From sequence record MH816966: a stretch of DNA of 64,000 nucleotides, one strand, 5' to 3'. The position numbers and the translations under genes were made by a program. The stretch is from Escherichia phage FEC19. The notes beneath the pieces are model-generated. The model did no database searches, was not told where the DNA came from, and saw nothing but the letters and a program-made list of their open reading frames with translations. This document shows, piece after piece, positions 40,347 to 49,889 of the stretch (its first letter is position 1; every line of letters starts with the position of its first letter).

Positions 40347-41219
40347 TTATGCCGATGGTGCAACGCCGCCCGTCACCGTAAATATATCATCACGACTCGC
40401 TAAATCATATTCAAGTTGCATGATGACAAATGTGGTGTCGTTCAAGCTTGGGTTTAAGACTGATTTGAATTTAACACCTTGTGCAAGCTTCAAATCTGCG
40501 TTATACATACAAGTGAAGTCTGCACCCCACTCGTTCCACATCGGTATTCCGACAAATTCCTCAATGACTGTAATCTGGTCTGGATTTAGAATTTTGTCTT
40601 TATCCTTAACAATTAACGTATCGTCATCAATGTATGCCGCGATGGAGTTGCGTTGATAGTTCTGGATCTCAAGCAGCAGCGCAGCAGCAACATATGTCGT
40701 TCTTCCTGGATTCACAAGGCGCTGATTATTAATCGACGTGTCGCAAATAACAGTATCGATGTCCATTTGTTTTGCAGACCATTCCACGAACTCTTTGAAA
40801 GTCGGGTTGGATGGCGCAGCTTGAGTTATGAACTTCGTTCTGTTTATTTGGTTGGTGTAACAAGTGATTCTGATGACTATATTCGGCGGCGGCGCTGTTA
40901 TCTCAACTGTCGTCACCTGTCCCTTGTATACCAAGTTGCTGCTGATTACGTTTCCCTCTCTGTATCCAGCTTCAATAGTCACGTTGACGTAGTTCGCCGC
41001 CAGCTGACCTTGATCACGCAGACGTTTGTTGAATGCCGTGAAGTTGGAAAGCAGGTACTCTCTCAAGTACCCTGTTAATCCTGCGACTTCAATCGTGGCC
41101 TTATTCTGAACGGAAAGTGCTGCCTTTTTGATTCGGCATCTAAGCATCAATCCTTCATCAAGCACTTGGCTTGTGCCATCCGGCATAAATAAGGTGACTT
41201 TAAGGATTCTCTTTTTCAA
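40347..41219 (-). CDS. tail structural protein immediately after tape measure
   Basis: 290-aa ORF. Confidence 0.45.
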   Translation of the reverse strand: MKKRILKVTLFMPDGTSQVLDEGLMLRCRIKKAALSVQNKATIEVAGLTGYLREYLLSNFTAFNKRLRDQGQLAANYVNVTIEAGYREGNVISSNLVYKGQVTTVEITAPPPNIVIRITCYTNQINRTKFITQAAPSNPTFKEFVEWSAKQMDIDTVICDTSINNQRLVNPGRTTYVAAALLLEIQNYQRNSIAAYIDDDTLIVKDKDKILNPDQITVIEEFVGIPMWNEWGADFTCMYNADLKLAQGVKFKSVLNPSLNDTTFVIMQLEYDLASRDDIFTVTGGVAPSA

Positions 41220-41223
41220 ATTA

Positions 41224-43404
41224 TCACCACTTCAAAGGTGTAGCAGTAAGGTTGTTTATGTCGTTGATATCATCTTGTTCAAGCACACGCTTAGTCTCAA
41301 TCGCCGTGCTTCTTGGGTCTTGAGCGCCGTTGACGTTGATGACAACGTTTTTCTGACCCATAGTGATATCACGCCCACCAGGTCGACTATTCGCGGAAAG
41401 GTCACTGCCGTATTTCTGGAATGCCTCAAGCTGAAATGCCGCAAGACGAGCATTCTTCATCGCTTCGGCCTGAATGTTCGGTCTTACACCTGGAGTTGAA
41501 GCCAGCTGCATGTTTTTAATATAATCCCTTTGCGTTCCAAGTTTAAGGTAAGTTTGAGCAAAGTCAATATCACCTTTGTTTACTTGTCCTTGCATCAGCT
41601 GCTCAACTGGCACGTTGAGGTATCCTGCAATAGCTTCTTGCAGCTGTCTGTATTGCACCGTTTGGCGGGATTGTCCCTGTACTGGAGCGTAGCTGCCTTT
41701 TGGCGCTTCTACTCCGCTACCGCTAAGCACTGGAGTAACTGGTGCACCTTGCGGCGCTCCCGTGGCGTATTCTCCATTCGCCTGTCGTTCGAGAGCGGCC
41801 ATTACCTTGCCAGGGTATGCACGGGTGTTCTTTCCCCATCCGCTGCGGTCATATCCGCCGTGATACATAGTCAGCGCAAGATTCCAATCGCCATTAGCAG
41901 CGGTGAAATATTCCTTGAGAAGTTGAGCGCCGCCCATAATGTTTTGTCTAGGGTCGTTGCCGTCTGTGATGCCAAGACCCTTGAAGTTGGAAGGCATTAT
42001 TTGCATCAGTCCGGTCGCGCCTGCTCCGCTTACGGCATTAGGGTTGAATCCAGATTCGACTTCTGTGACGGCCTTCATCATCGCAACAGGTATTCCATAA
42101 CGCTTGGAGGCTTCCTCATAGATTGAGTCGTAAGCGGTCGGATTGCCTGACCCCAAGTTATTGCCTACGGTCGCACCAGTACTTAGTGCTGGTGTTCCAG
42201 GTATGGCGGATTGGCCTGCGCTTCGTCCTATCTCACCAGCCCATGCAGCCCACGCTTGTCGCTCATCAATGACTCCAGCAAAGGTTGAAACGGCGCTTGA
42301 AAACAGGTTTATATCGCGAGTGAAAAGTGCTTGCGCAGAACGTTGTTCAGCCGCGTTTTGCTCCTGGTTCCTCTGGCGTTTCACATCGCCGTCGGCCATC
42401 TGCGTGATCCATCTATCAACGGCACGCTCGTGACGCTCGTTAACAGCCGCTTGTTTATCAAACGGGTGTTTCAAGTCAGCGATGAAATTGTCGACAAATT
42501 CAGACCATCCATCAGACATTCTTTGGAACATCATCTGGAATCCTTCGACTGTATCGGCAGTCTTGCTGACAAGCGTCGAGAATGCCGGCATCACGTTCTC
42601 GCCGATTACCAGTTCAATGCGTCGCCAGTCTTCTTGAATTTGGCCCATGCTGTTTCGTATCGTTTCAAGTGCGGCCTGCTGTCTTTGCAGCTTCGCGGTT
42701 TCTTCGTCGCTTATACGGGTGCTTTCTTTGACTGATTGATTTCGCTCACGAAGCGCACGGACTTCATCAGCGGTAAAACCTGCCAGAGCACCAATAGCAC
42801 GAGCGGTTTGCTCATTTACACTTCTCAGCTTTGTGCCAATTTCATCAAGCAGCTGGTTTGTGTCTTTTATGCCGCCGTTACTGTTGAAAGGACTGGTTCC
42901 CATCTTGTTAAGCAACAAGTTGTCCTTGTTCATAACATCTGGGTTGGTGTATGCGTTGAATGCGAGATTAGAAGCCTTGCTGATCAAATCCCTTGACCCT
43001 TGCGCACCAAGAACTCCGCCTGAACTCTCATTCAATTGTCGCTGTAATTGCTCCACGCCAATTGGTGAAAGTCCTGCTTCAAATCCCAGCTTCCTTTGCG
43101 CTTCGTATTCTTTTCGAACATCAACAATGGATTTGACGACGACAGCCAATCCTGCGACAACAGGAACGAGCGCGGCAAAGCGATAAGTAAGCCGCGCAAG
43201 GATTCCGTCAATAGACCCCAGTTCAGCTGTGAGAGGCTTCAGCTCACCAAACACATCTTTGAATGCTCCGGTGAAGTCTTTACCAGCGGCCTTTGCCTTT
43301 TTGTTTGTCTGATCAACCTTATCTTGCAATTGCTCAAGACGATTGATGGACTCTTTCAAGTCCACCGTATATTGAAGAACAAATTTTTCTAATGAGTCAG
43401 ACAC
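41224..43404 (-). CDS. tape measure protein with lytic transglycosylase (SLT-like) domain
   Basis: Coiled-coil N-terminal part, hydrophobic segment, TEVESGFNPNAVSGAGATGLMQIMP motif. Confidence 0.7.
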   Translation of the reverse strand: MSDSLEKFVLQYTVDLKESINRLEQLQDKVDQTNKKAKAAGKDFTGAFKDVFGELKPLTAELGSIDGILARLTYRFAALVPVVAGLAVVVKSIVDVRKEYEAQRKLGFEAGLSPIGVEQLQRQLNESSGGVLGAQGSRDLISKASNLAFNAYTNPDVMNKDNLLLNKMGTSPFNSNGGIKDTNQLLDEIGTKLRSVNEQTARAIGALAGFTADEVRALRERNQSVKESTRISDEETAKLQRQQAALETIRNSMGQIQEDWRRIELVIGENVMPAFSTLVSKTADTVEGFQMMFQRMSDGWSEFVDNFIADLKHPFDKQAAVNERHERAVDRWITQMADGDVKRQRNQEQNAAEQRSAQALFTRDINLFSSAVSTFAGVIDERQAWAAWAGEIGRSAGQSAIPGTPALSTGATVGNNLGSGNPTAYDSIYEEASKRYGIPVAMMKAVTEVESGFNPNAVSGAGATGLMQIMPSNFKGLGITDGNDPRQNIMGGAQLLKEYFTAANGDWNLALTMYHGGYDRSGWGKNTRAYPGKVMAALERQANGEYATGAPQGAPVTPVLSGSGVEAPKGSYAPVQGQSRQTVQYRQLQEAIAGYLNVPVEQLMQGQVNKGDIDFAQTYLKLGTQRDYIKNMQLASTPGVRPNIQAEAMKNARLAAFQLEAFQKYGSDLSANSRPGGRDITMGQKNVVINVNGAQDPRSTAIETKRVLEQDDINDINNLTATPLKW

Positions 43405-43407
43405 AGT

Positions 43408-43824
43408 TTACCCCTTGTTTGGAGTCTCGCCGCTGAGGAATGGCGCGATTAATCGCATCGATTCGCCAATAAATGCTGCAGCCATTTCGCCGCCAGCTTG
43501 TTCCCAGTATCCTTCACGTTCAGCGTGAGTCTCTGGGTTGATTCCGTTTTCCATCAACACTGCTTCGAAAACCAATTTCAAGTTTTCCCAGTCGCCAAGA
43601 TGGTTGTCAATAAGTGCGCCAGTGCTCAGCGGAATTTCTTGCCCGACATCAAGTTCAACCTTTGCAAAGCTTAACACTTCCATTGTGTATTCTGAACGGA
43701 ATGCAGGGTCTTTTGACATTGCAAATTCGATGAATCGGCGCTGTATGTTCCAACCTTCCATCGCAGTCATTTTGCTGATTTTAATTTCTACTTTACGACC
43801 AGTTTGTTTATTGGTGATCTTCAT
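43408..43824 (-). CDS. tail assembly protein, putative
   Basis: 138-aa ORF directly upstream of tape measure. Confidence 0.4.
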   Translation of the reverse strand: MKITNKQTGRKVEIKISKMTAMEGWNIQRRFIEFAMSKDPAFRSEYTMEVLSFAKVELDVGQEIPLSTGALIDNHLGDWENLKLVFEAVLMENGINPETHAEREGYWEQAGGEMAAAFIGESMRLIAPFLSGETPNKG

Positions 43825-43825
43825 T

Positions 43826-44386
43826 TTATATTCCTACTGTTGATTTTATTTTATTATATAACGAACTCACAGTTGTAGTCAAACTGACTGGCTCTTTAAT
43901 AGCCACGCCATTTGACGATTCATCTGCGGACTGTTTAGGGTCAAAGCTTCCTTGAATACTAAATGACGTCTGTTCAAATGTTATTACAATTGAGACTCCA
44001 TTCAGGTTTTCTTCTGACTGAGTTATTTCGACATCAGACATCGACATTTTGCTTGCAATTATGCTTCGAGAAGTTATTGAAAATGTGACTTCATCATTGT
44101 CGAATGTATTAATTATGTTTTCAATAGTCGATTGGTCGTTGCAAATTACGTTTAGCGCCATGTGCGCTGGCATTATTACTTTTGCCGCCTGTAGATTGCT
44201 TACTGAGGATGTACTTGATACTTCCACCACCTGCATCGCCGTTCCAGCAATTGGAAATTGAGTAGTTTCTGCTGGTGATGTTATTTCTGCAGACACTGGA
44301 GAAAGCCTTGTCCAGACAGGAAGCCCTGTCGACTCATTCGTTATGGTCAGAGATTGACCAGAAAGCAGAATCGAAACAAAGTCCAT
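43826..44386 (-). CDS. tail module hypothetical protein
   Basis: 186-aa ORF. Confidence 0.45.
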   Translation of the reverse strand: MDFVSILLSGQSLTITNESTGLPVWTRLSPVSAEITSPAETTQFPIAGTAMQVVEVSSTSSVSNLQAAKVIMPAHMALNVICNDQSTIENIINTFDNDEVTFSITSRSIIASKMSMSDVEITQSEENLNGVSIVITFEQTSFSIQGSFDPKQSADESSNGVAIKEPVSLTTTVSSLYNKIKSTVGI

Positions 44387-44919
44387 CAGAACATCCCCTT
44401 GATGCCATTCATCACCTTTGTTGCAACGCCAGTGACGCTGGCAGTAGTCTCTTTTATATAAGCGATGCCGCGCTCAATGACAGTGGAGTCGGCTGCTTGC
44501 GCTGTTTGAATAGACACATCCTGCTGTGTTAATATCTCGTGGAAGACCAGTTGTATGGGTTGTGAAGTTATATTGTCAGCATCTTGGCTGAGATTGTTAT
44601 TTTGCAGCACCATACGTTCAAATATTAGCCCACGAGAATTTATTGTGTATATAGTGGACCTATTTTGCAGCATCTTTGCGATTGCTTCGGACGCGCTTTT
44701 TGTCTGTGCTATTACAGTCACAGTCAATATTCTAGGCATTTTGACCCTGCCATCGACAATATAGCTTCCATCCTCCCTTTGGTTCTTGAATATCTTTGCT
44801 TGGAGTCTTATTTTAACGTTAACAATCGCCCAACCAAGCGTTGACACTTCCCCAAGGTTGAAGCTTCTTATTGTGAAGCTTCTGTTGGAAAGACTATATG
44901 ACAATAAATCGATAGCCAT
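44386..44919 (-). CDS. tail module hypothetical protein
   Basis: 177-aa ORF. Confidence 0.45.
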   Translation of the reverse strand: MAIDLLSYSLSNRSFTIRSFNLGEVSTLGWAIVNVKIRLQAKIFKNQREDGSYIVDGRVKMPRILTVTVIAQTKSASEAIAKMLQNRSTIYTINSRGLIFERMVLQNNNLSQDADNITSQPIQLVFHEILTQQDVSIQTAQAADSTVIERGIAYIKETTASVTGVATKVMNGIKGMF

Positions 44920-45416
44920 TAAATTGACCCCAATATACTCTGCACCACGCCTTTTGCAATTTGTGATGTGCTCTGTGCGCCGCCGTAGCTGGCAAACACG
45001 AATGTGTATCTGTTTGTCTTACGACGACCGGATTGCTCAATGGAGTCGCCAAGCGGACCGCTGATGATGGTCCCGTTCGAAAATGCTACTCTGCCGCCAT
45101 CAGGATATGTAATAAGCATTGATGTGACATCCTGTATAGGAAGCCACTTGAATCCGCCTTTACGAGCGGAAAGCAAAAGCTTTAGATTTATGTCGTCTTC
45201 AGTGTTTGGGATCACTGCAATGGATACGCGAACGACGGCGGCCTTGTCATAAATACAAATGCCGCCGTCATAAGTAAGTTGATAGCCTACTGATTCAACT
45301 TCCTCAATAATTAGCGAATCCTGGTCATCAGACAAAGAACTGATATTCAGCCCAACAGGAAAAGATTGGAGAGCGACAATTCTAATGCTTGTGCCAAATC
45401 CACTAATATTGACCAT
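44919..45416 (-). CDS. tail tube-like protein, paralog of 46367..46834
   Basis: N-terminus MVNISGFGTSIRIVA. Confidence 0.45.
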   Translation of the reverse strand: MVNISGFGTSIRIVALQSFPVGLNISSLSDDQDSLIIEEVESVGYQLTYDGGICIYDKAAVVRVSIAVIPNTEDDINLKLLLSARKGGFKWLPIQDVTSMLITYPDGGRVAFSNGTIISGPLGDSIEQSGRRKTNRYTFVFASYGGAQSTSQIAKGVVQSILGSI

Positions 45417-45418
45417 GT

Positions 45419-45685
45419 TTACTCCGCAGATGCAGATTTAACTGCTGCAAGAATTTCATCCTTATAAGAAAGACCTTTGATGTCAATCTCATGTTCCTTT
45501 GCATAAGCCTTCAATTCAGAGACGCTCATTGAATCAAAATCAACTTTCGATTCCACTGCCTTCTCTTCAACCTGTTCTTTCTTCTCCGCAACAGGGTTTG
45601 AAGTCTTTTTGAATAATTCCGATGCGTCTTCAAATTTTTCGCCAAATTTCATGACGCCATTAGCAAAATGAATTACTTGTGCCAT
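45419..45685 (-). CDS. tail module hypothetical protein
   Basis: 88-aa ORF. Confidence 0.45.
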   Translation of the reverse strand: MAQVIHFANGVMKFGEKFEDASELFKKTSNPVAEKKEQVEEKAVESKVDFDSMSVSELKAYAKEHEIDIKGLSYKDEILAAVKSASAE

Positions 45686-46041
45686 TATTGATTACTCACC
45701 TTTATACGTTCGCCATAAATAGTCACCACTTCAGCGGTGAATCCAAGAATACCGTTTTGGATGGTGACAGTCAATGAGTCGATTCCGGCAACGTCTGCTT
45801 TCTTCAGAATAGCATCTGCAATCGACTTTCTCGCACCGTCTTCATCAACGGGCGATTTGAAAACAGTGCCTAAATAATCGACTCCGTTTTCAACATCGTA
45901 CAAGTCTTCACCAAGTCGCATTTGATGCGCTGCCTTGATAACTTGTACCATGGCCTTTTCTCCTGACAGAATATTCAAATTTCTTCCATCAGGCAGAAAC
46001 AGGTCGTTGTTATCATTAACTTCAATCGTTAGAGTTGTCAA
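45685..46041 (-). CDS. tail module hypothetical protein
   Basis: 118-aa ORF. Confidence 0.45.
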   Translation of the reverse strand: MTTLTIEVNDNNDLFLPDGRNLNILSGEKAMVQVIKAAHQMRLGEDLYDVENGVDYLGTVFKSPVDEDGARKSIADAILKKADVAGIDSLTVTIQNGILGFTAEVVTIYGERIKVSNQ

Positions 46042-46367
46042 ATTGCAAACTCCGCTTCAGCAGTTTTCTGGAATTCAGCCAACTCAGATTCTGACATGTA
46101 ATATAAATTACAGCCGCCAGAGTTAAAATTCTCATAATCGGGTGTGCTGTCAAAAATAAAATTGCCGTACCCAATCATGAGATATTTATAAGGCACCATT
46201 GGTATACCACCAAAACAACGTACCCCCTGAATCAACAATTCGCCATTGCGGTAAACATCTGCGCACATGTGCTCAATTGCGGCGAATATGTGCAGCTGCC
46301 AATAAGCACCGTCAACGTTAAAGCTGATATTCTGGTTAGGTACGCTGTCAAGTGGTATTTGATACAT
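46038..46367 (-). CDS. tail module hypothetical protein
   Basis: 109-aa ORF. Confidence 0.45.
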   Translation of the reverse strand: MYQIPLDSVPNQNISFNVDGAYWQLHIFAAIEHMCADVYRNGELLIQGVRCFGGIPMVPYKYLMIGYGNFIFDSTPDYENFNSGGCNLYYMSESELAEFQKTAEAEFAI

Positions 46368-46834
46368 TATAAAATCTCTTGGTTGCTCACGCCAGTTTTG
46401 ACTACGTTCTCAAACTTAAAGCGATATTGACGTGTTTTTACACGACCCTGAGACTGGATGCCAGGAATTACTGAGCCAGTCGTCAAAGTGCCCTTGTTCA
46501 GTGTAATGACCATGCCAGAAGGGTAGGTCAGAATAAGGGTGATCACGTCTTTCGCAGAGTTCTTTCGCTTGCCTACACGGTTAGCCGCTGCCAGAACATC
46601 TAAGTTCACATCGCTTTCAGAAGTAGGGATGATGTTGACGCCTACTTCAAGAGGGTTGGCACGGTTCCATACTACCAGGTCACCGTTCAATCCCATTGCT
46701 GCTTCAGAGATTTGAAGATCAGGCGCGTCAATCGGATCAGCATCATCTGCGAAATCAGAAAGAGTTACACCATTTGGAAAAGTGTTTGATGCCACTAAAC
46801 GAATCGAAGCGCCAAAACCGGAAACGTTAATCAT
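46367..46834 (-). CDS. tail tube-like protein
   Basis: N-terminus MINVSGFGASIRLVA; follows large tail protein. Confidence 0.45.
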   Translation of the reverse strand: MINVSGFGASIRLVASNTFPNGVTLSDFADDADPIDAPDLQISEAAMGLNGDLVVWNRANPLEVGVNIIPTSESDVNLDVLAAANRVGKRKNSAKDVITLILTYPSGMVITLNKGTLTTGSVIPGIQSQGRVKTRQYRFKFENVVKTGVSNQEIL

Positions 46835-46881
46835 TACAGATTCCTCTCAGAGAGATGGCCGCCAGTTACGGCGGCAATTAT

Positions 46882-48420
46882 TTAGATAAGAACGTCACGA
46901 CCTTCAACGCGACGCACAGCATCATCTTTAGAGTAGATTAGCGTGTATGTTGCATAGTATTCGGTGCGCCCATCGGAAGTGGTTTCAGTATCAAAATCTA
47001 CAGTCAGCCAGTAACCGATAGTTTCAACCTGCCGCCAAGCAGTGTTGTCACCGGAAGTTTGCGTGATGTATTGTTTCTGAATCTCAGTCAGCGCCTTGCC
47101 AACAGAGATGGTGCCGTTCACTTTTGCGTTATCCACAGCAACCTGAATCATGGCTTGCACAGTCGCTTTCCCTTCTTCGTTAGCAGGGACGCGACCAAGA
47201 TTCAAGAACATGCTGAACAGCTGAGATGTAATAGCAGACTTGAGCCACATTTCGTTGGCATAAGTGTTCATATCAACTGCTGCTGTTGACCCGCCCATCA
47301 ATACGCCGCGCTGGAAGAATGCCAAGGTTTGTCCGGCCTGCTGAGTAGCACCGATGTAGTTCGCACGGTTTTGATCAGCAGTATCTGCGCGAGAGTCAGT
47401 TGAAACAGTCACGTTGCGAGTATCAAACTGATAATACATGTAGTTTTGAGTCGCATTCACAGTATTATAGTTTGTTGCCGCGAGGATTTCAGCAGGTGCT
47501 TGGTCGATGTAATCGTTGGCAAGGTTAGTTGCGCGAATCATCATGCCAACGCCTGAGTACCCTTTCAGAGCGGTGTAGTATGACCCGATATTAGCGAACG
47601 AAGTCGAGAATAAATACATGTACATATTATTCTGCGAATGAGTCCACGCTGCCACAGCGGTAATCTCTTCCAGAGTTCGGTCTGCTCCAGCGAAAAGGAA
47701 TGAGCCGAAGTTGTTGGAGATTTCCACAGATGCTGCGATTGCTTCTACCGGACTTGAAACGCCCTGGCCTGCAACGGTTACGGTGCCAGTGGTGGTCCAA
47801 CCCAACGCTTGAGACGGGTCGGTCGGTTGGCCTGTGACGTTGATAGACAGGTTGCCTGCACCAGCGGTAGACGGTGCTGCTTCCAGCGTGAACTGCTGAG
47901 TATTAGCATTCCAATACACTTCTGCATCAGCAAGTGCAGGCACCGATGTGCCACCTTCTGCTGCAAATTTAGTATTGATTGCCGTTTCCAGAAGTTCAGC
48001 AACATTTGCCAGACTTGTCGCTGCTGAAAGGTTAATTGCGTCAGTCAGGTAGTCTGTGCCATCGTAAGTGATGCTTAAGATAGCGCCAGTGAATGCCTGA
48101 AACGTAGCAAGCACTTTAGGCTCAGTATCACCGATTACCATTGCTGGAATCGCAGTCGACACAATACGCGAGAAGCTGATCGAATCAGGCGAGTTAATTT
48201 GCTTGCTGATGAATCCAAAATATAATGCTGCGCGCTTATATTCTTCGGAAGAATAACCGAAATATGATCCAACAGCATCAGCCGTTGAAAATTCTGCTAC
48301 AATGCCAGGCGGCAGAACTGTATTAGAAGTCATGACGCGAAGAGACAGTTTGCGAACTGCAACAGCCGCGCCTGCTCCGACCCCTGATACAATTTTAATA
48401 TAACGAGATTGACTGATCAC
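46882..48420 (-). CDS. major tail structural protein (sheath-like?)
   Basis: 512 aa, immediately upstream of tube-like gene; no motif confirmed. Confidence 0.4.
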   Translation of the reverse strand: MISQSRYIKIVSGVGAGAAVAVRKLSLRVMTSNTVLPPGIVAEFSTADAVGSYFGYSSEEYKRAALYFGFISKQINSPDSISFSRIVSTAIPAMVIGDTEPKVLATFQAFTGAILSITYDGTDYLTDAINLSAATSLANVAELLETAINTKFAAEGGTSVPALADAEVYWNANTQQFTLEAAPSTAGAGNLSINVTGQPTDPSQALGWTTTGTVTVAGQGVSSPVEAIAASVEISNNFGSFLFAGADRTLEEITAVAAWTHSQNNMYMYLFSTSFANIGSYYTALKGYSGVGMMIRATNLANDYIDQAPAEILAATNYNTVNATQNYMYYQFDTRNVTVSTDSRADTADQNRANYIGATQQAGQTLAFFQRGVLMGGSTAAVDMNTYANEMWLKSAITSQLFSMFLNLGRVPANEEGKATVQAMIQVAVDNAKVNGTISVGKALTEIQKQYITQTSGDNTAWRQVETIGYWLTVDFDTETTSDGRTEYYATYTLIYSKDDAVRRVEGRDVLI

Positions 48421-48432
48421 GTCGGTGTCCTC

Positions 48433-48918
48433 TTATTTAATGACTTGGCTGTTGACAGATTGCCACATAAGACTGCTGTGGATTAAAGGCTTGTCGAATC
48501 CCTTCACACGTACAGTATATCTGGCGTTTCTTTGCCACGGTCCGTTTTTAATTGATTCGACAATCTTTGCTTCCATCGCAAGCCCAATTTGACCCAATGC
48601 CTGTCTAGCGTCTATTTTACCGGAAAAAATCTTTTTAGCAATTTTATTCTCTATTTCACTGCGCTCACTAACGAATAATTCATAGGCATATCTCATGAAT
48701 GGTCTGGGTGGCACTTCTACCCTGACTGGGCCTTGTCCAAAGTTCAAAACGGCTATGTGACCAAATTCGTTAAGCCGCGCGACTTCTGAAACCAACATTC
48801 CTTCTCCACCAGTTTCTGAAGGGTATCTGGTAGAATCAAACCATCCCGCCTCGACAGTAAGACCCTTCATAGATTGAAGCGCCTTAATCTGTTTTTCTAT
48901 CATTTTTGATTTTGTCAT
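48433..48918 (-). CDS. head-tail joining / tail completion protein, putative
   Basis: Position; start trimmed to MTKSKM. Confidence 0.4.
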   Translation of the reverse strand: MTKSKMIEKQIKALQSMKGLTVEAGWFDSTRYPSETGGEGMLVSEVARLNEFGHIAVLNFGQGPVRVEVPPRPFMRYAYELFVSERSEIENKIAKKIFSGKIDARQALGQIGLAMEAKIVESIKNGPWQRNARYTVRVKGFDKPLIHSSLMWQSVNSQVIK

Positions 48919-48919
48919 A

Positions 48920-49501
48920 TTACACCGGAACGTCACCCAAATCATTATTAACAGCTCTTGCCACTGCAGGAGTATCAATTGAAATTGCGTTTCTGTGAAG
49001 TATTACCAAATCAAAAGAAGGGAATGATTCAAATTGCGACATATCATCATAAAACTTTTCATTATTATTCATGTCGATTCGATATACTGAGGCCTGATGC
49101 TTTTTGAACCAATCTCTCAGATTAGCTTTATGAGTTATGAATCTTGCCAAATAAGTCAATACGTCATTAGCAGTAGGCTTTTCTGGGTCACCAGGGACTT
49201 CTGGAAATAAGCCACTAATTTGAAAACGTGTTGCGTATATCTGATCTTCAATATCTTTAAATTTGCCGTTTACAAATTGAGACTCATCATTGACAAATTC
49301 ACTTTTCCTCATGGACCATCCAAACGGAACTGAGAATAAAAGGTTAAACCAAATTTGGTCACCAGTCGGAATGCCCTGTTGAGTCGGTTGATACTTTTTC
49401 TGGACCGGAACAGCAGAAAGGTCTGCACGACTATACGCCGCCAGACCTTCTTCAATTCGCGTTGCCAGCATGTCAATCAGGTCGACATCTGTCATATACA
49501 C
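48920..49501 (-). CDS. head-tail connector region hypothetical protein
   Basis: 193-aa ORF. Confidence 0.45.
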   Translation of the reverse strand: MYMTDVDLIDMLATRIEEGLAAYSRADLSAVPVQKKYQPTQQGIPTGDQIWFNLLFSVPFGWSMRKSEFVNDESQFVNGKFKDIEDQIYATRFQISGLFPEVPGDPEKPTANDVLTYLARFITHKANLRDWFKKHQASVYRIDMNNNEKFYDDMSQFESFPSFDLVILHRNAISIDTPAVARAVNNDLGDVPV

Positions 49502-49502
49502 C

Positions 49503-49889
49503 TCAAGTAGACACTGGAAAGCTTTGTTTTATTTCCACGGCAAGGCAAGTCGTCCAACCATCTTGGTCAAACCATGTCGTTTCATCTTCCATTTTATACG
49601 TTTTCCCACCAAACACAAAATAGTCGCCGGAAGCGTCGCGGTCAAGGTCAACAATGTCTTTGTCTACCCAGATTTTGACATAGTTCTTTTGAAGCTCCAA
49701 TCCAAGCTCGACGTATTGATTTCGAAGAACAGCCTGCACCGAAGCAAGTAGCGTGATTGGTTCTTCATAAGTGGTAACGTAGTTGCGCATTTTATCAAGA
49801 GTGCGCCCCTTGTACATGTAATATTGAATCGGTTGGCGACCGATGACCTTTGTCGCAACTCGATATAAGTTTACGCCAGGAATCCTCAC
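49503..49889 (-). CDS. head-tail connector region hypothetical protein
   Basis: 128-aa ORF. Confidence 0.45.
   Translation of the reverse strand: MRIPGVNLYRVATKVIGRQPIQYYMYKGRTLDKMRNYVTTYEEPITLLASVQAVLRNQYVELGLELQKNYVKIWVDKDIVDLDRDASGDYFVFGGKTYKMEDETTWFDQDGWTTCLAVEIKQSFPVST

What the first reader, a model, noticed from the sequence alone, without database searches (positions are those of the whole stretch)
44919..46834. Two paralogous tube-like proteins in the tail module
ORFs 46367..46834 and 44919..45416 share the N-terminus M.N(I/V)SGFG.SIR.VA and similar length, but are separated by three small genes. Two tube-like paralogues are unusual; one may form a specialised tube initiator or terminator, or the architecture may differ from the canonical sheath-tube layout. 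Whether the 512-aa upstream protein is a contractile sheath is not established from sequence alone.
Basis: inference. Interest (0 to 1): 0.4.

Follow-up and report, generated by a model that had tools for sequence, protein, structure and literature searches.

The report
Tail tube and its baseplate paralogue
The two similar small proteins are the tail tube and the single tube-like ring that joins the tube to the baseplate in a contractile-tailed E. coli phage, an arrangement already seen directly in cryo-EM structures of related Pseudomonas phages, so it is ordinary.

Summary
ORFs 46367..46834 (155 aa) and 44919..45416 (165 aa), both on the minus strand, are paralogues: 33% identity over 143 aa, E 2e-32. 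Three small genes separate them.

The window is a Wifcevirus-type E. coli myophage, 97.7% nucleotide identity to EC150 and Ro157lw (97.6% to ECML-117). Its tail module has the same gene order as the Pseudomonas phages E217 and Pa193 (Pbunavirus), whose whole virions have been solved by cryo-EM.

- **Upstream copy:** it matches the solved tail tube (Pa193 gp33, E 2e-48; E217 gp32).
- **Downstream copy:** it matches the solved "baseplate tube" or "tail tube-B" (Pa193 gp37, E 1e-52; E217 gp36). That protein forms one hexameric ring between the tube and the gp37/gp38 ring of the baseplate cap.
- **512-aa protein:** it is the contractile sheath (E217 gp31, E 8e-167, full length).

Four further phage genera fetched keep both copies in the same gene order, and almost all of the 378 matching phage records hold two matching places. 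The duplication is therefore old.

A tube-fold protein in the baseplate is normal for contractile tails, not unusual. This is already known, and interest is low.

The parts
46882..48420 (-). Contractile tail sheath (orthologue of E217 gp31 / Pa193 gp32)
   Evidence: phmmer against PDB: 8fvg_A sheath gp31, E 7.7e-167, residues 1-512 aligned to 1-504. Pfam DUF3383 402.7 bits; PHROG 205 'tail sheath'.
46367..46834 (-). Tail tube protein proper ('tube-A'; orthologue of E217 gp32 / Pa193 gp33)
   Evidence: PDB 9b42_M 'gp33 Tail tube', E 1.9e-48; 8fuv_T E217 gp32, E 5.8e-42. Much weaker to the baseplate-tube chains (3e-25). Lies directly downstream of the sheath gene, as in SN, SMP, FoX7 and BcepF1.
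46038..46367 (-). Baseplate adaptor (orthologue of E217 gp33 / Pa193 gp34 'helical bundle'; Pam3 gp18 'plug' family)
   Evidence: PDB 9b45_A, E 3.9e-26; 8env_G, E 7.5e-26. Pfam PF22479 Pam3_gp18, 64 bits.
45685..46041 (-). Sheath initiator (orthologue of E217 gp34 / Pa193 gp35)
   Evidence: PDB 9b45_G 'gp35 Sheath initiator', E 4.6e-23; 8env_H, E 1.3e-21. PHROG 120 'baseplate wedge subunit'.
45419..45685 (-). Small variable ORF (88 aa) in the slot of E217 gp35; function unknown and not among the proteins listed in either virion atlas
   Evidence: The same slot is occupied in SN (143 aa), SMP (81 aa), FoX7 (145 aa) and BcepF1 (71 aa). Only the first ~14 residues are conserved ('I(Q/H)FANGV'); the rest is a variable, low-complexity tail. 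The window copy has sub-threshold SAP/Rho_N-like hits at residues 47-87. Pa193 lists gp34, gp35 and gp37 among its baseplate proteins but not gp36 (PMC11456595).
44919..45416 (-). Baseplate tube / 'tail tube-B' (orthologue of E217 gp36 / Pa193 gp37): one hexameric ring between the tube and the baseplate cap
   Evidence: PDB 9b45_M 'gp37 Baseplate tube', E 1.1e-52 (residues 1-162); 8env_I E217 gp36, E 2.2e-49. Much weaker to the tube chains (1e-21, 3e-16). Groups with the tube-B proteins of four other genera, 84% bootstrap. Carries a conserved C-terminal extension that tube-A lacks.
44386..44919 (-). Baseplate cap component, orthologue of E217 gp37 / Pa193 gp38 'ripcord-1'
   Evidence: PDB 9b45_S, E 6.3e-20; 8eon_A, E 1.8e-19. 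Pfam PF22760, 44 bits.
43826..44386 (-). Baseplate cap component, orthologue of E217 gp38 / Pa193 gp39 'ripcord-2'; distant paralogue of the preceding gene
   Evidence: PDB 9b45_V, E 1e-26; 8eon_D, E 1.3e-26. Pfam PF22760, 242 bits. 24% identity to the 177-aa neighbour, E 2e-6.
43408..43824 (-). Conserved 138-aa protein directly upstream of the tape measure gene; putative tail assembly chaperone (inferred from position only)
   Evidence: 35-48% identical to the proteins at the same position in SN, SMP, FoX7 and BcepF1. PHROG 4627, unknown function; no Pfam hit. The equivalent Pa193 gp40 is not in the list of proteins built into the virion.
41224..43404 (-). Tape measure protein with an internal lytic transglycosylase (SLT) domain
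   Evidence: Pfam SLT 84.9 bits at residues 430-529; PHROG 2013 'lytic tail protein', E 6e-139, plus weaker tape-measure PHROGs. Same position as SN gp40 and Pa193 TMP gp41.
40347..41219 (-). Baseplate hub (orthologue of E217 gp41 / Pa193 gp42)
   Evidence: PDB 8eon_E, E 2.7e-85. Pfam PF22759 E217_GP41, 393.6 bits.

Best explanation
The window carries the tail module of a Wifcevirus-type E. coli myophage, built on the same plan as the Pseudomonas Pbunavirus phages E217 and Pa193. ORF 46367..46834 is the tail tube protein. It polymerises as stacked hexamers inside the sheath encoded by 46882..48420. ORF 44919..45416 is an old, diverged duplicate of the tube gene, called 'tail tube-B' or 'baseplate tube'. 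It forms a single hexameric ring coaxial with the tube at its distal end. On one face this ring continues the tube lumen and offers a tube-like surface for the first true tube ring. On the other face it is the platform for three heterodimers of the next two gene products (44386..44919 and 43826..44386). Those heterodimers step the symmetry down from six-fold to three-fold for the trimeric hub (40347..41219) and the spike. Shown here: paralogy, orthology to the solved proteins, conserved gene order, and the age of the duplication. Inferred by homology: ring stoichiometry, position in the virion, and the role in starting tube assembly.
For: - Paralogy: 33% identity over 143 aa, E 2e-32. Both belong to PF22764.
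- Reciprocal orthology to solved chains. Tube-A scores 167 bits to the Pa193 tail tube and 91.6 bits to the Pa193 baseplate tube. Tube-B scores 181 bits to the baseplate tube and 80 bits to the tail tube.
- Of the eleven genes from sheath to hub, eight match E217/Pa193 chains of known position: sheath, tube, adaptor, sheath initiator, baseplate tube, the two cap proteins and the hub. A ninth, the tape measure, rests on family hits and gene position.
- Cryo-EM papers. E217 gp36 is 'tail tube-B', similar to tube gp32 (RMSD 3.6 A), a hexameric ring concentric to gp32 that provides the attachment surface for three gp37/gp38 heterodimers (PMC10329688). Pa193 gp37 is described the same way (PMC11456595).
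- Identical gene order in Pbunavirus SN, Myosmarvirus SMP, Carpasinavirus FoX7 and Bcepfunavirus BcepF1.
- 378 phage records match tube-B, with 733 places in all, so nearly every record holds two matching places.
- Tree: the tube-B proteins form one clade at 84% bootstrap. Identities are 42-55% among tube-A proteins, 50-60% among tube-B proteins and 26-39% between the two sets.
- The window is 97.7% identical in DNA to known Wifcevirus phages. A published study states that Wifcevirus structural genes were annotated from the Pbunavirus cryo-EM structure (bioRxiv 10.1101/2024.09.12.612763).
Against: There is no direct structural or proteomic evidence for this phage. Position and stoichiometry are transferred from orthologues that are 51-53% identical. 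My own structure predictions were unusable (mean pLDDT 29-31), so fold identity was not confirmed independently. Naming in the literature is inconsistent: the PDB entries call E217 gp36 both 'Ripcord' and 'Baseplate component'. It is also unsettled whether the true 'tube initiator' is this ring or the gp37/gp38 ring beneath it.
Confidence: 0.93

Rival explanations
1. The second paralogue is a tube terminator or neck-proximal cap that stops tube growth at the head end.
For: Only the general fact that some tail terminators share the tube fold (established knowledge). Nothing found here supports it.
Against: The orthologues sit in the baseplate in two independent cryo-EM structures. The gene lies among baseplate genes, downstream of the sheath initiator and upstream of the cap and hub genes. 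The neck proteins are encoded separately upstream of the sheath: E217_gp29 'gateway' at 48920..49501 and E217_gp28 'collar' at 49503..49889, plus a gene that RefSeq labels 'tail completion or Neck1'.
Confidence: 0.02
2. The pair is a recent, lineage-specific duplication giving two interchangeable or alternative tube subunits, for example a mixed tube or a spare copy.
For: Same Pfam family and similar length.
Against: The two copies are only 31-33% identical, whereas each is 51-60% identical to its counterpart in other genera. The tube-B clade is monophyletic across five genera, and the gene order is fixed. Tube-B carries a conserved C-terminal extension that every tube-A lacks. In E217 and Pa193 the repeating tube is built from one protein only.
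Confidence: 0.02
3. The similarity is not meaningful: chance, or a miscalled ORF.
For: None.
Against: E 2e-32 between the two proteins. Both have strong matches to solved proteins. 26 phage records match tube-B at 99% identity or more, and the three of them listed are 100% identical.
Confidence: 0

Closest known systems
Pseudomonas phage E217 gp32 (tail tube) and gp36 ('tail tube-B'); PDB 8fuv, 8env, 8eon; Pa193 gp33 and gp37 ('baseplate tube'); PDB 9b42, 9b45
   Same: Same Pfam family. Best hits are orthologous in both directions (E 2e-48 and 1e-52). Neighbours and gene order are the same from sheath to hub, and protein lengths are similar.
   Different: Different host (E. coli/Shigella rather than Pseudomonas) and genus (Wifcevirus rather than Pbunavirus), with about 51-53% amino-acid identity. 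The small ORF between the sheath initiator and tube-B differs in length and sequence (88 aa here, 143 aa in SN). The tape measure is shorter (726 aa here, about 858 aa in SN and Pa193).
Tube initiators of simple myophage baseplates: Pam3 gp17 and Mu gp43
   Same: A tube-fold hexameric ring at the baseplate end, from which the tube grows (PMC9942802, PMC11915804). The window's 109-aa protein belongs to the Pam3 gp18 'plug' family.
   Different: Pam3 gp17 and Mu gp43 have a substantial C-terminal helical or LysM domain that contacts the wedge or plug. Tube-B here has only a ~12-17 residue extension. In E217 it is gp37/gp38, not gp36, whose C-terminal ~40 residues extend outward and are bound by the adaptor gp33. 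No sequence match to Pam3 or Mu chains appeared in the PDB search at E <= 1. This lineage therefore has an extra tube-like layer: hub, then the gp37/gp38 ring, then tube-B, then tube.
T4 gp19 tube with gp48 and gp54 baseplate-tube junction rings; Afp1/Afp5 and Pvc1/Pvc5 of extracellular contractile injection systems (from established knowledge, not tested here)
   Same: The general principle: one or two single-copy rings of tube-fold paralogues lie between the hub and the repeating tube.
   Different: No detectable sequence similarity in the searches run here, and the gene order and baseplate complexity differ.
Bordetella phage vB_BaM-IFTN1 tube (single-copy relative)
   Same: A PF22764-like tube protein, 42-46% identical to the tube-A proteins, encoded directly after a ~500-aa protein at the sheath position.
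   Different: Only one detectable copy, and the layout is tube, small ORF, tape measure, with no inserted baseplate genes. This shows that the tube-A type is the ancestral form and tube-B the diverged copy.

Membership tests
Pfam PF22764 (E217_Gp32; Pfam's title 'Tail fiber protein gp32' is a misnomer for the tail tube) | Score above the curated gathering cut-off (27 bits) over the full length of the model | tested here: met
   Tube-A 202.5 bits, model positions 1-143 of 144. Tube-B 180.4 bits, positions 2-143 of 144.
Tail tube proper (E217 gp32 / Pa193 gp33 orthologue group) | Closer to solved tube chains than to baseplate-tube chains | tested here: met
   46367..46834: 167 bits to 9b42_M (tube) against 91.6 bits to 9b45_M (baseplate tube).
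Tail tube proper (E217 gp32 / Pa193 gp33 orthologue group) | Gene lies immediately downstream of the sheath gene | tested here: met
   The sheath gene ends at 46882 and the tube gene starts at 46834. Same order in SN, SMP, FoX7 and BcepF1.
Tail tube proper (E217 gp32 / Pa193 gp33 orthologue group) | Polymerises into a helical stack of hexamers the length of the tail | not testable with these tools
   Needs cryo-EM or virion stoichiometry. Inferred from 53% identity to the tube of Pbunavirus SN, a genus-mate of the solved phages.
Baseplate tube / tail tube-B (E217 gp36 / Pa193 gp37 orthologue group) | Closer to solved baseplate-tube chains than to tube chains | tested here: met
   44919..45416: 181 bits to 9b45_M and 170.5 bits to 8env_I, against 80 and 63 bits to the tube chains.
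Baseplate tube / tail tube-B (E217 gp36 / Pa193 gp37 orthologue group) | Conserved gene position: after the sheath initiator and the small ORF, directly before the gp37/gp38 pair | tested here: met
   for the window; for four other genera.
Baseplate tube / tail tube-B (E217 gp36 / Pa193 gp37 orthologue group) | Forms one clade with tube-B proteins of other genera and carries a conserved C-terminal extension | tested here: met
   Neighbour-joining tree, 84% of 300 bootstraps. The extension is present in all five tube-B proteins and absent from all tube-A proteins.
Baseplate tube / tail tube-B (E217 gp36 / Pa193 gp37 orthologue group) | A single hexameric ring in the baseplate cap, retained on the tube tip after contraction | not testable with these tools
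   Known for E217 from cryo-EM (PMC10329688). Transferred here by homology.
Contractile tail sheath, DUF3383 type (E217 gp31) | Full-length homology to a sheath whose extended and contracted states are solved | tested here: met
   E 7.7e-167 over residues 1-512 against 1-504 of 8fvg_A. DUF3383 402.7 bits against a cut-off of 34.9.
Tube initiator in the Pam3 gp17 / Mu gp43 sense | Tube-like barrel plus a sizeable C-terminal helical or LysM domain that contacts the plug or wedge | tested here: not met
   Tube-B is 165 aa with only a ~12-17 residue C-terminal extension. The PDB search at E <= 1 returned only the four E217/Pa193 chains. Tube-B works like a tube-initiating ring but is not a member of that family. 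The gp37/gp38 ring is the closer positional equivalent.

The most novel reading that the evidence does not exclude
The stack of tube-fold rings in this lineage (hub, gp37/gp38 heterohexamer, tube-B, tube) may need its own assembly factor. The candidate is the small ORF wedged between the sheath initiator and tube-B (45419..45685). It has a conserved 14-residue N-terminus, a genus-specific low-complexity tail, and is missing from both virion atlases. It could be an unrecognised chaperone or a regulator of tube-B ring formation. The paralogue pair itself offers no novel reading that the evidence leaves open.
Probability: 0.08. Interest if true: 0.3.

Novelty: already known. Interest (0 to 1): 0.07.

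Why it matters
It matters little for discovery. The two-tube arrangement was resolved at near-atomic resolution in E217 (2023) and Pa193 (2024), and the homology has already been used to annotate Wifcevirus phages. The practical value is for annotation. RefSeq, PHROGs and the Pfam title label the tube, tube-B and both cap proteins of these phages as 'tail fiber protein', which is wrong. The mapping given here (sheath, tube, adaptor, sheath initiator, baseplate tube, cap pair, tape measure, hub) gives correct names for the module.

Tried and rejected
- **AlphaFold2.** I predicted both paralogues using the only alignments allowed without a large database search (the two window proteins aligned to each other). 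Mean pLDDT was 30.8 and 29.4, with every residue below 50. The models are unusable, so I ran no fold search.
- **Large searches not run.** I did not run the 5.8-billion-protein search, the representative search or the metagenome and genome scans. Direct hits to solved structures already answered the question.
- **Python access to loci.** Scripts could not read loci L002-L006 because they were not present in /data. I made the alignment with align_proteins instead and built the tree from it.
- **Link between tube-B and the gp37-like neighbour.** I tested for sequence similarity and found none (E = 14). The fold relationship reported for E217 is not visible at sequence level here.
- **Terminator role.** Considered and rejected; see the rival explanations.
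- **Frameshift at the chaperone/tape-measure junction.** I read the sequence. The 138-aa ORF and the tape measure gene are in the same frame, separated by a stop codon and one more codon. I did not look for a slippery site.
Full report
**Observation**

On the minus strand, ORF 46367..46834 encodes 155 aa and ORF 44919..45416 encodes 165 aa. Compared directly, they share 47 of 143 residues (33% identity, 61% positives, no gaps) with E = 2e-32. Three ORFs of 109, 118 and 88 aa lie between them. All of these genes are annotated in the near-identical RefSeq record of phage ECML-117.

**Where the window comes from**

Bases 41000-49000 are 97.7% identical over their full length to Escherichia phages EC150 and vB_EcoM-Ro157lw, and 97.0-97.6% identical to ECML-117, WFH and others of the genus Wifcevirus. 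These are E. coli/Shigella myoviruses of about 66-72 kb, described in the literature as distant relatives of the Pseudomonas genus Pbunavirus. One study states that the Pbunavirus cryo-EM structure was used to annotate Wifcevirus structural genes (bioRxiv 10.1101/2024.09.12.612763).

**What the two proteins are**

Both belong to one Pfam family, PF22764 E217_Gp32, at 202.5 and 180.4 bits against a cut-off of 27. The sequence search against solved structures separates them cleanly.

| Window ORF | Tail tube chains | Baseplate tube chains |
|---|---|---|
| 46367..46834 (155 aa) | Pa193 gp33: E 1.9e-48, 167 bits; E217 gp32: E 5.8e-42 | Pa193 gp37: 3.4e-25; E217 gp36: 4.8e-25 |
| 44919..45416 (165 aa) | Pa193 gp33: 1.4e-21; E217 gp32: 3.2e-16 | Pa193 gp37: E 1.1e-52, 181 bits; E217 gp36: E 2.2e-49 |

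The upstream gene is therefore the orthologue of the tail tube, and the downstream gene is the orthologue of the baseplate tube.

It matches E217 gp31 over its full length, E 7.7e-167, and scores 402.7 bits to DUF3383.

**The rest of the module maps one to one onto E217/Pa193**

| Window ORF (minus strand) | Counterpart | Evidence |
|---|---|---|
| 46038..46367 | E217 gp33 / Pa193 gp34 adaptor; Pam3 gp18 'plug' family | |
| 45685..46041 | Sheath initiator, E217 gp34 / Pa193 gp35 | |
| 44386..44919 | E217 gp37 / Pa193 gp38 'ripcord-1' | |
| 43826..44386 | E217 gp38 / Pa193 gp39 'ripcord-2' | |
| 41224..43404 | Tape measure with an SLT domain | |
| 40347..41219 | Hub, E217 gp41, E 2.7e-85 | |

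Upstream of the sheath lie the E217-type collar and gateway neck proteins.

**How it works, by homology with the solved virions**

- In E217, the 'baseplate cap' is formed by gp36, gp37/gp38, gp41 and gp43.
- That ring gives an attachment surface to three gp37/gp38 heterodimers. These create the three-fold symmetry needed by the trimeric hub gp41 and the tip gp43.
- After contraction, gp36, gp37/gp38 and gp41 stay on the tube tip.
- All four cap proteins have the tube fold (PMC10329688).
- Pa193 gives the same picture: gp37 is the 'baseplate tube', RMSD 4.2 A to tube gp33 (PMC11456595).

The second paralogue is thus a single-ring adaptor that continues the tube lumen into the baseplate and offers a tube-like face on which the tube proper can grow. 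This mechanism is inferred for the window phage. What is shown here is the orthology and the conserved gene order.

**Age and spread of the duplication**

A tblastn search with tube-B against 50,697 phage records found 378 records and 733 places, so almost every record holds both copies. They include Pseudomonas (295), Escherichia (25), Burkholderia, Serratia, Xanthomonas, Vibrio, Pantoea and Erwinia phages.

The gene order is identical in Pbunavirus SN, Myosmarvirus SMP, Carpasinavirus FoX7 and Bcepfunavirus BcepF1. It runs: sheath, tube, adaptor, sheath initiator, small ORF, tube-B, cap pair, conserved ~140-aa ORF, SLT tape measure, hub.

In an alignment of the five pairs plus a single-copy relative:
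- tube-A proteins are 42-55% identical to one another;
- tube-B proteins are 50-60% identical to one another;
- tube-A and tube-B proteins are only 26-39% identical;
- the tube-B proteins form one clade in 84% of 300 bootstraps.

The single tube of Bordetella phage IFTN1 sits in the plain order of tube, small ORF, tape measure, directly after a ~500-aa protein at the sheath position. It is closer to tube-A (42-46%) than to tube-B (25-32%). Tube-B is therefore the diverged copy. All tube-B proteins carry a conserved C-terminal extension of about 12-17 residues that tube-A lacks. The Pa193 paper states that the sheath initiator binds outward-extending C-termini of the baseplate tube and ripcord-1. 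That would give the extension a role, but the E217 paper words this contact differently, so I treat it as a lead only.

**Comparison with what is known**

A tube-fold ring at the baseplate end is a general feature of contractile tails. Pam3 gp17 and Mu gp43 are called tube initiators (PMC9942802, PMC11915804). From established knowledge, T4 has gp48 and gp54, and extracellular injection systems have Afp5/Pvc5. The premise that two tube-like paralogues are unusual does not hold.

Tube-B is not a member of the Pam3 gp17 / Mu gp43 family. It lacks their large C-terminal domain and shows no sequence match to them. In this lineage the gp37/gp38 ring is the nearer positional equivalent, and tube-B is an extra layer above it.

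**What failed**

AlphaFold2 with two-row alignments gave mean pLDDT of 29-31. The solved orthologues at 51-53% identity make it unnecessary.

**Verdict**

The biology is already established by two cryo-EM atlases and has already been transferred to this genus. Novelty: already known. Interest: about 0.07.

Noticed in passing
window 45419..45685 (-); L002:5560-5991, L003:4756-5001, L004:4542-4979, L005:4784-4999: The small ORF between the sheath initiator and tube-B is present in all five genera. Only its first ~14 residues are conserved ('M..(I)(Q/H)FANGV'). The rest is a variable Pro/Glu/Ala-rich tail of 55-130 residues, and the window copy ends in a sub-threshold SAP/Rho_N-like helix-hairpin. 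It is not among the proteins listed in the E217 or Pa193 virion atlases. Its function is unknown.
   Followed up: partly
window 43826..44386 and 44386..44919 (-): A second, adjacent paralogue pair: 24% identity over 112 aa, E 2e-6, and both hit PF22760. It corresponds to the E217 gp37/gp38 heterodimer that steps the symmetry from six-fold to three-fold.
   Followed up: yes
window 43826..46834 (-) and the RefSeq records NC_025441, NC_048194, NC_011756, NC_009015: The tube, tube-B and both cap proteins are labelled 'tail fiber protein' in RefSeq and in PHROGs 2420 and 2580. The Pfam title of PF22764 is 'Tail fiber protein gp32'. The solved structures show that none of them is a fiber, so this is a propagated misannotation.
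   Followed up: partly
window 43402..43824 (-): The conserved 138-aa ORF upstream of the tape measure is a putative tail assembly chaperone, by position only. It ends in TAA at 43408-43410. The GTG start of the tape measure follows at 43404 in the same reading frame, one codon later. I did not search for a frameshift signal.
   Followed up: no
window 48433..48978 and 48920..49501 (-): The longest-ORF call for the gene upstream of the sheath (181 aa from TTG) overlaps the preceding gateway gene by 59 bases. RefSeq annotates a shorter 161-aa product in ECML-117, so the real start is probably internal.
   Followed up: no
L006 (Bordetella phage vB_BaM-IFTN1) 4433-8633: This 39.8-kb phage has a single PF22764-like tube gene in the plain order of tube, small ORF, tape measure, directly after a ~500-aa gene at the sheath position, with no detectable tube-B. 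It is a useful outgroup for dating the duplication.
   Followed up: partly
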